Shown: piece by piece, positions 56,201-59,858 of the stretch | Layout: every line of letters begins with the position of its first letter | Position numbering within the stretch: the stretch's first letter is position 1 | DNA from: Escherichia phage vB_EcoM-PM133 | Strand: one strand, 5' to 3' | Length of the DNA: 64,000 nt | Sequence record: MZ234052.1 | Notes under the pieces: generated by a model | Told to the model about the DNA's origin: nothing | Seen by the model: only the letters and a program-made list of their open reading frames with translations | The model's database searches: none | Made by a program: the position numbers and the translations under genes

Positions 56201-56746
56201 ATGAGAAAAGCACTACTCGCTGGTCTATTGGCCATTTCAATGATGGCACATAGCTCCGAGCATACTTTCAGTAATGTCCAACTCGATAACATGCGTTACG
56301 CGTATCAATTCGGGGAACAATTTTCTAAGGATGGAAAATATAAAACACACAAAAATATCCACAAGAGCGGATTGGGTCATATAATGGCTGCTATTTTATG
56401 GCAAGAAAGCTCTGGCGGAGTTAATTTAAAATCTAAAGCAAAGCATCACGCCTACGGAATGTTCCAAAATTATTTGCCTACTATGCGAGCAAGAGTTAAG
56501 GAACTTGGTTATAATATGACCGATGCTGAAATAAAAAGAATGTTGAATAAACGGTCCAATTCAGCTTCCTGGGCGTACATTGAACTTTCTTATTGGTTAA
56601 ATATACATAAGGGCGATATAAGAAAAGCAATATCCTCTTATAATTCGGGATGGAATGTTAAAGCAGGTTCTAAATATGCTTCTGAAGTCCTAGAAAAGGC
56701 TAATTACCTTAAAAATAATAAACTTTTGGAAATAGTAAATGACTAA
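56201..56746 (+). CDS. secreted lytic-transglycosylase-like protein
   Basis: 181-aa ORF with signal peptide MRKALLAGLLAISMMAHS and SLT-like motifs WQESSGG, GMFQ, SYNSGW. Confidence 0.5.
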   Translation: MRKALLAGLLAISMMAHSSEHTFSNVQLDNMRYAYQFGEQFSKDGKYKTHKNIHKSGLGHIMAAILWQESSGGVNLKSKAKHHAYGMFQNYLPTMRARVKELGYNMTDAEIKRMLNKRSNSASWAYIELSYWLNIHKGDIRKAISSYNSGWNVKAGSKYASEVLEKANYLKNNKLLEIVND

Positions 56747-57080
56747 AATTTTGGTTTTATGTATAGGATTAATTTCATTTTCTGCGTTAGCAGATACATC
56801 ATATACTGAAATTAGAGAGTATGTAAACCGTACTGCAGCGGATTATTGCGGGAAAAATAAAGCATGCCAAGCTGAATTTGCGCAGAAATTAATATATGCA
56901 TATAAAGACGGAGAAAGAGATAAATCAAGCAGATACAAAAATGATACATTGTTAAAACGATATGCTAAAAAGTGGAATACCTTAGAATGTTCAGTTGCGG
57001 AGGAGAAAGATAAAGCCGCTTGTCATTCAATGGTTGACCGTTTGGTAGATTCTTATAATCGAGGATTGAGTACTAGATGA
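56739..57080 (+). CDS. periplasmic Cys-containing small protein
   Basis: 113-aa ORF with signal peptide MTKILVLCIGLISFSALA and four Cys. Confidence 0.5.
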   Translation: MTKILVLCIGLISFSALADTSYTEIREYVNRTAADYCGKNKACQAEFAQKLIYAYKDGERDKSSRYKNDTLLKRYAKKWNTLECSVAEEKDKAACHSMVDRLVDSYNRGLSTR

Positions 57081-57556
57081 TTGTAAAATATATCAAGGGC
57101 GATATTGTCGCCCTATTTCTTCAAGGTAATATTATTGCGCACGGGTGCAATTGTTTTCATACTATGGGTTCAGGTGTAGCTGGTCAATTAGCAAGAGCCT
57201 ATCCCAAAATTTTAGAAATAGATAAAACCACTACTGAGTACGGTTCTCGTGATAAATTAGGCGATATGTCTATTGTTTTTAAACATAAACCTAATGGTTT
57301 TGGTATATGCTATAACCTGTATACGCAATACGAACCAGGTCCTAATCTTGATTATGGTGCTTTAGTAAACTGCATGATAGAATTAAATCTACAGGCAGAA
57401 ACCCTTTTGTTTAAACCAGTAATTTACATTCCACGCATAGGTTGTGGTATTGCTGGCGGCGATTGGGATAAGGTTTCTAAATTAATCGACATGTTTACTC
57501 CTGATATTGATTTAATAGTGGTGGATTATGAAAGTGCATTACCCACATCCGTTTGA
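57077..57556 (+). CDS. macro-domain-like protein (putative ADP-ribose binding / hydrolase)
   Basis: 159-aa ORF; KGDIV...IAHGCNCFHTMGSGVAGQLARAYP and PRIGCGIAGGDWD resemble macro-domain motifs (GDIT...NAAN...GGGVxxAI; PAISTGVYG). Confidence 0.5.
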   Translation: MIVKYIKGDIVALFLQGNIIAHGCNCFHTMGSGVAGQLARAYPKILEIDKTTTEYGSRDKLGDMSIVFKHKPNGFGICYNLYTQYEPGPNLDYGALVNCMIELNLQAETLLFKPVIYIPRIGCGIAGGDWDKVSKLIDMFTPDIDLIVVDYESALPTSV

Positions 57557-57740
57557 TCCTAAAAACAAAGCAGTAATTATTCGTCAATGGGAACGCATTT
57601 GCCGTACTAAATGTCCAATTAATAGTCCACATGATGTAGATAAAGACTACATTGGAACATTCGTTGAATATACCTTTATTGATAAGAAAGGTCGTAAACA
57701 ACATGTAGAAGAATATTGCTTAAAGGTTACATGGTTATGA
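57528..57740 (+). CDS. hypothetical protein
   Basis: 70-aa ORF overlapping the preceding gene's 3' end. Confidence 0.4.
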   Translation: MKVHYPHPFDPKNKAVIIRQWERICRTKCPINSPHDVDKDYIGTFVEYTFIDKKGRKQHVEEYCLKVTWL

Positions 57741-57943
57741 GCCAAACTAGTATTCTTAAAAATGCCCACTGTGAAAAGTGTAAGTGGCCGGTTGTTTTTG
57801 CTTTATGCAACGATGAAATGGCTTGTGATTTCGATTATTGGTGCTATTGTTCTAATAAAGGATGCATCAATCATAAAGGTGAAGGATTTTATTCAGGATT
57901 TTATCCTTATCCTGATTTCGTTAAAGAAGGTAAACCAAAATGA
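57731..57943 (+). CDS. Cys-rich small protein (possible zinc binding)
   Basis: CEKCK...C..C...C.C..C..GC pattern; start at 57731 or 57737. Confidence 0.45.
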   Translation: MVMSQTSILKNAHCEKCKWPVVFALCNDEMACDFDYWCYCSNKGCINHKGEGFYSGFYPYPDFVKEGKPK

Positions 57944-58113
57944 ATAGTTTTGAGTTACAATACGAAGTGTTACGTGAGCTTGATAATTTAATTGAACTCG
58001 CTGTTAATAAAGGTTTTGCCATTGGAATCGGTCAAAAAGATACTGGTCATTTAACTATGGAAATATTTAAGCAAAAGCGAATTATTTTAAAACTCCTGGA
58101 AATTAATATATGA
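57940..58113 (+). CDS. hypothetical small protein
   Basis: 57-aa ORF translationally coupled to both neighbours. Confidence 0.4.
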   Translation: MNSFELQYEVLRELDNLIELAVNKGFAIGIGQKDTGHLTMEIFKQKRIILKLLEINI

Positions 58114-58295
58114 GTCTGAGCAAAGAACAAAAAGATAAATTGTTTGAGCTTATCCATGAACTTCTAGATGAGCATATAGAAGCAAACACCTTTTATGATG
58201 AATACGGCCCGCTATCTCCCGAACAGCAGGAAGAATTTGCTGATCGGTTTGATAAGAAAGAAAATGAATTAATAGCTTATGTGAATACGCTTTAA
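58110..58295 (+). CDS. hypothetical acidic protein
   Basis: 61-aa ORF immediately upstream of tk. Confidence 0.5.
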   Translation: MSLSKEQKDKLFELIHELLDEHIEANTFYDEYGPLSPEQQEEFADRFDKKENELIAYVNTL

Positions 58296-59834: not shown

Positions 59835-59858
59835 AGTCTCCTTCGGGAGACTTTTTTC
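59835..59858 (+). terminator. rho-independent terminator
   Basis: Hairpin agtctccttcgggagact followed by TTTTTT. Confidence 0.7.

What the first reader, a model, noticed from the sequence alone, without database searches (positions are those of the whole stretch)
57077..57556. Macro-domain-like early gene product (candidate ADP-ribose hydrolase)
The 159-aa ORF has motif spacing typical of macro domains: KGDIV (compare GDIT), IAHGCNCFHTMGSGVAGQLARAYP (compare NAAN...GGGVDGAIHRAAGP) and PRIGCGIAGGDWD (compare PAISTGVYG). T4-like phages use ADP-ribosylation offensively (Alt, ModA, ModB), and hosts use it defensively (DarT ADP-ribosylates phage DNA). A phage macro domain could reverse host ADP-ribosylation or tune the phage's own modifications. 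It sits among small early genes and a periplasmic-protein cluster upstream of tk.
Basis: inference. Interest (0 to 1): 0.5.

Follow-up and report, generated by a model that had tools for sequence, protein, structure and literature searches.

The report
T4 tk.4/adfM anti-DarT macrodomain gene

Summary

Two points go beyond the annotation. First, the window copy is a divergent allele, only 57% identical to T4 Tk.4, lying between flanks that are about 98-100% identical. Second, the Tk.4 family lacks the catalytic lysine of DarG, TARG1 and PhiKZ AdfM. It has an invariant Gln84, with Asn25 and Gly122/Gly124. This matches the active site of SCO6735, which cleaves thymidine-linked ADP-ribose from DNA.

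The most likely function is removal of DarT2-added ADP-ribose from phage DNA. That is inferred by orthology and active-site conservation and has not been shown for this allele. Verdict: interpretation supported, already known, low interest.

The parts
57077..57556 (+). tk.4 / adfM coding sequence: 159 aa, a single ALC1-like macrodomain
57061..57065 (+). Shine-Dalgarno-like GAGGA upstream of the ATG; the ATG overlaps the vs stop codon (ATGA, 57077-57080), suggesting translational coupling
   Evidence: Read directly from the sequence. Function is inferred.
57140..57184 (+). Codons H22-G36 (HGCNCFHTMGSGVAG): phosphate-binding loop 1. Includes invariant H22, G23, N25 (57149-57151), C26, G33 and A35. 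N25 is the equivalent of SCO6735 Asn27 and PhiKZ AdfM Asn23.
   Evidence: Family alignment of 91 sequences. HMMER alignments to SCO6735, BT1257 and DarG. Mutagenesis in the literature: SCO6735 N27S is nearly inactive (PMC9411070); PhiKZ N23A is reduced (PMC13309987).
57314..57340 (+). Codons N80-G88 (NLYTQYEPG). The invariant Gln84 (57326-57328) occupies the position of the catalytic Lys of TARG1 (K84) and DarG (K80), and of the essential Gln85 of SCO6735.
   Evidence: Q84, N80 and Y82 are invariant in 91/91 sequences. The profile alignment pairs 'NlYtQ' with TARG1 'yLiTK' and BT1257 'NmigQ'. Family member P0089 pairs 'naytQ' with SCO6735 'nmigQ' and Mtb DarG 'nfptK'. SCO6735 Q85A is dead.
57431..57466 (+). 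Codons P119-W130 (PRIGCGIAGGDW): diphosphate-binding loop 2. G122 and G124 are invariant and correspond to SCO6735 Gly126/Gly128. A126 occupies the position of TARG1 Asp125.
   Evidence: SCO6735 G128E is reduced.
57105..57530 (+). Allele-replacement segment. This stretch is deeply diverged from T4 tk.4 (nucleotide identity falls to 33-55%; 57% aa identity overall), while vs upstream and tk.3 downstream are about 98-100% identical to T4.
   Evidence: DNA alignment. BLASTP 89/155 identical residues. Codon-by-codon profile showing both synonymous and non-synonymous differences. Window-type core found in 304 phage records and T4-type core in 375.
57096..57114 (+). GC-rich 8-bp hairpin (AGGGCGAT-ATT-GTCGCCCT) within codons 7-13, at the 5' edge of the allele-swap segment. 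Role unknown.
   Evidence: Terminator-like scan. MFE -12.9 kcal/mol, z = -3.2, 1 of 200 shuffles as good. Conserved with loop variation, one compensatory pair change in L019, and a different hairpin at the same codons in L027.
57528..57556 (+). 29-nt out-of-frame overlap of the tk.4 3' end with the tk.3 start (T4 has a 4-nt ATGA overlap). It encodes the tk.4 C-terminal tail (the last residues, ...ESALPTSV); residues 157-159 are predicted disordered.
   Evidence: pLDDT below 50 for residues 157-159.

Best explanation
The ORF is the Tequatrovirus early gene tk.4, now also called adfM (anti-DarT factor, macrodomain). It encodes a stand-alone ALC1-like macrodomain. When an infected cell activates the DarTG2 toxin-antitoxin defence, DarT2 attaches ADP-ribose to thymidines in single-stranded phage DNA (TNTC motifs) and blocks replication. 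Tk.4 most likely binds the ADP-ribose through its two glycine-rich loops and hydrolyses the ribose-thymine N-glycosidic bond, restoring unmodified DNA. In effect it acts as a phage-carried substitute for the DarG antitoxin. Unlike DarG, TARG1 and the PhiKZ AdfM, it has no catalytic lysine. It carries the invariant Gln84/Asn25/Gly122/Gly124 constellation of SCO6735, so catalysis probably follows the lysine-independent route proposed for SCO6735, in which Gln positions the distal ribose and a water molecule does the chemistry. What is shown: the macro fold, orthology to T4 tk.4 and the active-site pattern (here), and that T4 tk.4 is required to resist DarTG2 (literature). What is inferred: that this 57%-identical allele does the same, that the protection is enzymatic, and the SCO6735-like chemistry.
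For: Macro fold. Orthology: same position as T4 tk.4 between vs and tk.3, BLASTP E=1e-69, 57% identity over 155 aa. Genetics of the orthologue: tk.4 was the single HIDEN-SEQ hit on a DarTG2 host, and a clean knockout was sensitised. T4 lacking AdfA and AdfN stays DarTG2-resistant, which implied another factor. Active site: Q84, N25, G122 and G124 are invariant in 91 homologues and align with SCO6735 Gln85, Asn27 and Gly126/128. These residues are required for SCO6735 to cleave thymidine-linked ADP-ribose from DarT-modified DNA (PMC9411070; confirmed with synthetic substrates in PMC12879935). A phage macrodomain removing DarT2 ADP-ribose from DNA in vitro has precedent in PhiKZ gp104. The best hit in PADLOC and in NCBIfam is DarG, although weak. 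T-even BASEL phages, which include Bas41 FriedrichZschokke with the window-type allele (99.5% identical region), are described as DarTG2-resistant.
Against: No biochemical activity has been published for any Tk.4-type protein; the T4 evidence is genetic only. The window allele is only 57% identical to the T4 protein that was tested. The catalytic Lys of DarG and TARG1 is absent, so the DarG mechanism cannot apply as such. The long basic mobile loop that SCO6735 uses for DNA binding (Lys89/Lys94) is also absent; the window has a shorter QYEPGPNLDY loop. Close structural relatives include Poa1p, an ADP-ribose-1''-phosphate phosphatase, so the fold alone does not fix the substrate.
Confidence: 0.7

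Rival explanations
1. Housekeeping small-molecule enzyme: an ADP-ribose-1''-phosphate phosphatase or O-acetyl-ADP-ribose deacetylase, as implied by the common database label 'phosphatase' / 'A1pp'.
Against: The label is a historical name for the domain, not a tested activity. T4 has no known pathway that makes Appr-1''-p. This activity would not explain the DarTG2-specific phenotype of T4 delta-tk.4. The active-site residues match the DNA-acting SCO6735.
Confidence: 0.06
2. Eraser for the phage's own ADP-ribosylation (Alt, ModA, ModB) or ModB RNAylation, tuning the timing of host take-over.
For: T4-like phages encode three ADP-ribosyltransferases (established knowledge; PMC9503650). An early-expressed hydrolase could in principle reset those marks.
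Against: Alt and Mod enzymes modify arginine, a linkage not known to be cleaved by ALC1-like macrodomains (established knowledge of the family). In the T4 transposon screen tk.4 was reported as depleted specifically in the presence of DarTG2. There is no genomic linkage to alt or mod in this window.
Confidence: 0.05
3. Non-catalytic anti-toxin. Lacking the catalytic lysine, the macrodomain protects by binding, either shielding ADP-ribosylated DNA or directly inhibiting DarT2 in the way AdfA and AdfB do.
For: Absence of the DarG/TARG1 lysine. Other anti-DarT factors (AdfA, AdfB) are direct DarT inhibitors. Many macrodomains are pure readers.
Against: SCO6735 has the same Gln-for-Lys substitution and is a highly active ADPr-thymidine hydrolase, and its Gln is essential. 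The invariance of Q84, N25 and H22 across 91 diverse homologues is typical of a catalytic site. The protein lacks the C-terminal DarT-binding domain of DarG (159 aa; it matches only the first ~140 positions of the 338-position model).
Confidence: 0.07
4. Hydrolase aimed at a different nucleic-acid ADP-ribosylation (for example RNA uracil ADP-ribosylation, or another DarT-like toxin clade), with the window allele having a specificity different from the T4 allele.
For: There are two deeply diverged alleles between near-identical flanks, both common: 304 and 375 phage records. ALC1-like macrodomains (TARG1, SCO6735, DarG) appear in recent papers on RNA ADP-ribosylation and its reversal (titles).
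Against: All catalytic-site residues are identical between the two alleles. The differences are spread through the rest of the protein at both synonymous and non-synonymous sites, which is what ancient neutral divergence followed by recombination would give. The T-even BASEL phages, among which Bas41 carries the window-type allele, are described as DarTG2-resistant.
Confidence: 0.1

Closest known systems
T4 Tk.4 = AdfM (anti-DarT factor Macrodomain; bioRxiv 10.1101/2025.11.20.689424)
   Same: Same genomic slot (vs - tk.4 - tk.3), same length class, alignable over 155 aa without gaps at 57% identity, and the same invariant active-site residues.
   Different: A deeply diverged allele with 43% of residues different and a 4-residue longer C-terminus that overlaps tk.3 by 29 nt. 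The window allele itself has not been tested.
Streptomyces coelicolor SCO6735 (PDB 5E3B) and Bacteroides BT1257 (2AFC/2FG1): Gln-type ALC1-like macrodomains
   Different: The mobile loop after the Gln is 5 residues shorter and lacks the two lysines that SCO6735 uses for DNA binding. SCO6735 is a bacterial DNA-damage-inducible protein, not a phage counter-defence gene.
DarG antitoxin macrodomain (M. tuberculosis 5M3I, T. aquaticus 5M31/5M3E)
   Different: Only 27.6 bits on the DarG model (cutoff 250). The catalytic Lys80 is replaced by Gln. There is no C-terminal DarT-binding domain and no adjacent darT.
PhiKZ gp104 'AdfM' (Cell Rep 2026, PMC13309987)
   Same: A stand-alone phage macrodomain that counters DarTG2. 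In-vitro removal of DarT2 ADP-ribose from DNA has been shown for it. The conserved Asn in loop 1 is shared. Both fall in PHROG 335.
   Different: A different sub-lineage. gp104 is strongly DarG-like (9e-25 to 5M3I; 138 bits on the DarG model) and keeps the FPTK lysine. Pairwise BLASTP to the window protein is only E~1e-3 over 33 residues. The shared name therefore covers two independently recruited macrodomains.
Human TARG1/OARD1 (4J5S) and yeast Poa1p (6LFR)
   Same: Top Foldseek hits (5.5e-10 and 4.6e-9), same ALC1-like class. TARG1 also removes ADPr from thymidine in DNA (title of PMC8501950).
   Different: The TARG1 catalytic dyad Lys84/Asp125 is replaced by Gln84/Ala126. Poa1p acts on a small-molecule phosphate ester.

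Membership tests
Macro domain superfamily (Pfam PF01661) | Profile match above the curated gathering score | tested here: met
   33.1 bits against a cutoff of 22, E=6.1e-8, covering profile positions 2-117 of 118.
Macro domain superfamily (Pfam PF01661) | Three-layer alpha/beta/alpha macro fold | tested here: met
Macro domain superfamily (Pfam PF01661) | Binds ADP-ribose in the cleft between the two Gly-rich loops | not testable with these tools
   Both loops are present and conserved. Binding itself needs experiment.
ALC1-like macrodomain class (TARG1 / DarG / SCO6735 / Poa1p) | Closest sequence and structural neighbours belong to this class rather than to the MacroD, PARG or viral nsP3 classes | tested here: met
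AdfM of T4 (tk.4) | Positional orthology: the gene lies between vs and tk.3 in a Tequatrovirus genome | tested here: met
   T4 annotation. DNA alignment with near-identical flanks. Window 100% identical to Tequatrovirus records.
AdfM of T4 (tk.4) | Full-length sequence homology to T4 Tk.4 | tested here: met
   BLASTP 57% identity, 74% positives, no gaps, E=1e-69.
AdfM of T4 (tk.4) | Required for phage growth on a DarTG2-expressing host | not testable with these tools
   Shown only for the T4 allele. Indirect support: the T-even BASEL phages (Bas41 carries the window-type allele) are described as DarTG2-resistant.
SCO6735-type (Gln) thymidine-ADPr DNA hydrolase | Gln at the position of the TARG1/DarG catalytic Lys (SCO6735 Gln85) | tested here: met
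   Q84 is invariant in 91/91 sequences and aligned Q-to-Q with SCO6735 and BT1257, and Q-to-K with TARG1 and DarG.
SCO6735-type (Gln) thymidine-ADPr DNA hydrolase | Asn27 and Gly128 equivalents required for activity | tested here: met
   N25 and G124 are invariant and aligned.
SCO6735-type (Gln) thymidine-ADPr DNA hydrolase | Extended basic mobile loop (Lys89, Lys94) that aids DNA binding | tested here: not met
   From the Gln to the conserved Tyr the window has 10 residues (QYEPGPNLDY) with no Lys. SCO6735 has 15 (QHGMKTGSKGAPVRY).
SCO6735-type (Gln) thymidine-ADPr DNA hydrolase | Hydrolysis of DarT-modified ssDNA in vitro | not testable with these tools
   Needs purified protein.
DarG antitoxin (NCBIfam NF048014, PADLOC PDLC02990) | Equivalog-level profile score | tested here: not met
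   27.6 bits against a cutoff of 250. PhiKZ gp104 scores 137.8. PADLOC gives 27.7 against 132.9 bits.
DarG antitoxin (NCBIfam NF048014, PADLOC PDLC02990) | Catalytic Lys80 | tested here: not met
   Replaced by Gln84, with no Lys nearby.
DarG antitoxin (NCBIfam NF048014, PADLOC PDLC02990) | C-terminal DarT-binding domain and an adjacent darT gene | tested here: not met
   The protein is 159 aa and matches only model positions 2-138 of 338. The neighbours are vs, vs.1, regB, tk.3 and tk. A bacterial family member also has no DarT neighbour.
Poa1p-type ADP-ribose-1''-phosphate phosphatase | Poa1p active-site residues (His23, Ser30, Phe152 were the mutated positions) | tested here: inconclusive
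   H22 aligns with Poa1p His23 and T29 with Ser30 (alignment). H22 is also conserved in SCO6735, TARG1 and BT1257, so it does not discriminate. The Poa1p residue at the Gln84 position could not be read from the outputs.

The most novel reading that the evidence does not exclude
The two deeply diverged tk.4 alleles that circulate between near-identical flanks in Tequatroviruses (window-type and T4-type, 57% identical, each in hundreds of genomes) may be maintained because they neutralise different ADP-ribosylating toxins or substrates, such as different DarT2 clades or RNA rather than DNA. The Tk.4 lineage would then be a lysine-independent, SCO6735-derived eraser recruited independently of the DarG-derived AdfM of jumbo phages.
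Probability: 0.15. Interest if true: 0.5.

Novelty: already known. Interest (0 to 1): 0.22.

Why it matters
It matters mainly as confirmation. A sequence-only reader correctly predicted both the fold and the counter-defence role, and recent genetics on T4 established that role.

Three smaller points remain open. No Tk.4-type protein has been assayed biochemically. Its active site is of the lysine-free SCO6735 kind rather than the DarG kind to which the literature compared it. And the name AdfM now covers two macrodomain lineages that are only distantly related. The common allele dimorphism offers a ready-made natural experiment on the specificity of anti-DarT factors.

Tried and rejected

2. 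An 'orphan DarG antitoxin' origin for Tk.4 was rejected. The DarG model scores are weak (about 28 bits against 138 for PhiKZ gp104), the catalytic Lys is absent and there is no DarT-binding domain.

3. I looked for a DarT neighbour beside a bacterial family member (P0089, Pelagimonas). None was present, but only one genome was examined.

4. I tried to read the Poa1p residue at the Gln84 position. The HMMER output for Poa1p breaks before that segment and Poa1p never ranked in a displayed top five, so this is unresolved.

5. I looked for direct DarTG2 plating data on a phage with the window-type allele. I found only a general statement that T-even phages are DarTG2-resistant, plus the identification of FriedrichZschokke as Bas41.

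6. Literature searches for other work on tk.4 found only the 2006 comparative-genomics note of an A1pp match and the 2025 preprint.

7. The promoter scan gave no more sites than shuffled sequence (14 against a mean of 18.2), so no promoter is claimed. Terminator-like hairpins were enriched (11 against 2.7).

Full report
**Observation.** Its ATG overlaps the stop codon of the upstream gene (ATGA), and a GAGGA lies 11 nt upstream. Pfam Macro (PF01661) matches almost end to end at 33.1 bits, above the 22-bit gathering cutoff. A single-sequence search of the PDB finds only macrodomains at significant E-values: BT1257 1.4e-10, yeast Poa1p 1.2e-9, SCO6735 1e-7, M. tuberculosis DarG 2.4e-5 and TARG1 9e-3.

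**Identity of the gene.** The window is a Tequatrovirus. A 3.2-kb stretch around the ORF is 100% identical to Escherichia phage vB_EcoM-PM107 and 95-99% identical to several hundred T4-like phages. The gene order is regB, vs.1, vs, this ORF, tk.3, small ORFs, tk, rI.1, rI, which is the T4 order, so the ORF is tk.4. RefSeq T4 calls tk.4 'phosphatase; contains A1pp phosphatase motif'. Many GenBank records call the identical or near-identical protein 'macro domain protein'. A 2006 comparative-genomics paper already noted the A1pp match of tk.4 orthologues (PMC1524935). Homologues occur in 2,773 phage records across many genera.

**What is published about function.**
- A November 2025 preprint (bioRxiv 10.1101/2025.11.20.689424) screened a T4 transposon library on a DarTG2-expressing host. 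tk.4 was the single significant hit, and a clean knockout sensitised T4 to DarTG2. The authors renamed the gene adfM and proposed, without biochemistry, that it removes ADP-ribose from DNA.
- This filled a gap noted earlier: T4 lacking AdfA and AdfN remained DarTG2-resistant (PMC11257639).
- Independently, a 2026 Cell Reports paper gave the name AdfM to PhiKZ gp104. It showed that the purified protein removes DarT2-added ADP-ribose from a DNA oligonucleotide (PMC13309987).

**Active site.** This is where the analysis adds to the annotation.
- In the 91-sequence alignment H22, G23, N25, C26, G33, A35, D49, N80, Y82, Q84, P119, G122, G124 and W130 are invariant.
- Profile-to-PDB alignments pair the family's 'NlYtQ' with TARG1 'yLiTK' and BT1257 'NmigQ', and pair 'iGcGiaggdW' with TARG1 'iGcGldrlqW'. 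So Gln84 occupies the position of TARG1 Lys84, and Ala126 that of Asp125.
- A family member (P0089) aligns Q-to-Q with SCO6735 'nmigQ' and Q-to-K with Mtb DarG 'nfptK'. Its 'hgcNc' aligns with SCO6735 'hvcNd'.
- The SCO6735 paper reports that the enzyme lacks the DarG/TARG1 lysine yet efficiently cleaves thymidine-linked ADP-ribose from DarT-modified DNA. Q85A is dead, N27S is nearly dead and G128E is reduced. It proposes a water-mediated mechanism in which Gln85 positions the distal ribose (PMC9411070). A 2026 JACS paper confirms SCO6735 activity on synthetic ADPr-thymidine oligonucleotides.
- Every one of those required residues is invariant in the Tk.4 family.
- One SCO6735 feature is missing: the mobile loop after the Gln is 5 residues shorter and has no lysines.

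**Relation to DarG and to the other 'AdfM'.**
- PhiKZ gp104 hits the DarG macrodomains at 9e-25 and 3e-19 and keeps 'FPTK'. It scores 137.8 bits on NCBIfam DarG and 132.9 on PADLOC DarG.
- The window protein scores 27.6 and 27.7 bits on those models, and T4 Tk.4 scores 30.3 and 36.
- Pairwise BLASTP between Tk.4 and gp104 is marginal, E about 1e-3 over 23-33 residues.
- Tk.4 also lacks DarG's C-terminal DarT-binding domain and has no DarT neighbour. A bacterial family member in Pelagimonas is likewise a stand-alone gene.

So Tk.4 works like DarG but is not a member of the DarG family, and the name AdfM now covers two separately recruited macrodomain lineages. All three proteins fall in the broad PHROG 335, labelled 'phosphatase'.

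**The allele.**
- The window protein is only 57% identical (89/155) to T4 Tk.4, although vs upstream and tk.3 downstream are about 98-100% identical to T4 at the DNA level.
- Divergence begins around codon 10-15, deepens to 33-55% nucleotide identity, and ends at the tk.3 start. It involves synonymous and non-synonymous sites alike. That pattern indicates old alleles exchanged by recombination rather than recent rapid change.
- Both alleles are common. The window-type core is found full-length in 304 phage records and the T4-type core in 375.
- The catalytic-site residues are the same in both. The published experiment was done on the other allele, so function here rests on orthology plus active-site conservation.
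- Indirect support: the T-even BASEL phages are described as DarTG2-resistant, and one of them, Bas41 FriedrichZschokke, is 99.5% identical to the window in this region.

**Mechanism and rivals.** The best-supported explanation (confidence about 0.7) is an early-expressed, stand-alone macrodomain. It would remove DarT2-installed ADP-ribose from thymidines in phage single-stranded DNA by a lysine-independent, Gln/Asn-dependent route like that of SCO6735. The rivals are:
- A small-molecule Appr-1''-p phosphatase or OAADPr deacetylase (0.06).
- An eraser of the phage's own Alt/Mod marks (0.05).
- A non-catalytic binder or DarT inhibitor (0.07).
- A hydrolase whose window-type allele has a different nucleic-acid or toxin specificity (0.10).

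Each is addressed, with the result that would refute it, in the Rival explanations section of this report.

**Side observations.**
- A GC-rich 8-bp hairpin sits inside codons 7-13 (57096-57114). Its MFE is -12.9 kcal/mol with z = -3.2. It is conserved in T4 and in all relatives that encode KGDIVAL, with the loop varying while the stem is kept. One compensatory G-C to A-T change occurs in a 59%-identical orthologue, and a different hairpin sits at the same codons in a 44%-identical one. Other lineages lack it. It lies at the 5' edge of the allele-swap segment, and its role is unknown.
- The interval between tk.3 and tk differs from T4 and carries a Phage_zn_bind ORF.

**Verdict.** Novelty is 'already known': the domain annotation dates from the 2000s and the counter-defence role from 2025. 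Residual interest is low (0.22). It lies in the missing biochemistry, the SCO6735-type rather than DarG-type active site, and the common allele dimorphism.

Noticed in passing
window 57096-57114 (+): A stable GC-rich hairpin (AGGGCGAT-ATT-GTCGCCCT; -12.9 kcal/mol, z -3.2) lies inside codons 7-13 of tk.4. It is built from GC-rich codons that are unusual for this AT-rich genome and is followed by a T-rich stretch. It is conserved in T4 and relatives, with loop variation, one compensatory pair change (L019) and a different hairpin at the same codons in L027. Other lineages lack it. It could be an attenuator, an mRNA-stability element or a recombination boundary.
   Followed up: partly
window 57105-57530 compared with T4 (L002): tk.4 is a divergence island: 57% aa identity to T4 Tk.4 between flanks that are ~98-100% identical at the DNA level. 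Both allele classes are common in sequenced phages (304 and 375 records).
   Followed up: yes
literature: T4 Tk.4 and PhiKZ gp104: Two groups independently used the name AdfM for macrodomains that are only distantly related (BLASTP E~1e-3). PhiKZ gp104 is DarG-like with the catalytic Lys. T4 Tk.4 is SCO6735/BT1257-like with Gln. This is a nomenclature collision that hides a mechanistic difference.
   Followed up: yes
window 56201-56746 (vs.1) and 56739-57080 (vs): Both upstream genes have signal-peptide-like N-termini, and vs.1 has an SLT lytic transglycosylase domain (Pfam E=1e-5). It is odd that vs, annotated 'valyl-tRNA synthetase modifier', looks exported. The HIDEN-SEQ preprint reports vs as the gene most depleted in minimal medium.
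   Followed up: no
window 57716-58295: The interval between tk.3 and tk is not collinear with T4 (only ~69% identity over 180 nt). It encodes a 75-aa Phage_zn_bind (PF23895) ORF plus two small ORFs in place of T4 tk.2/tk.1, so there is a second mosaic patch next to tk.4.
   Followed up: partly
window 57528-57556: In this allele tk.4 runs 29 nt into tk.3 in another frame, whereas T4 has a 4-nt ATGA overlap. The extra C-terminal residues are predicted disordered, which suggests a by-product of the recombination junction.
   Followed up: partly
window 59835-59852 (+): A strong terminator-like hairpin (AGTCTCCTTCGGGAGACT followed by TTTTTCATTT) lies after rI.-1. The corresponding position is annotated as a terminator in phage R5505. 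It probably ends the regB-to-rI.-1 early/middle transcription unit that includes tk.4.
   Followed up: no
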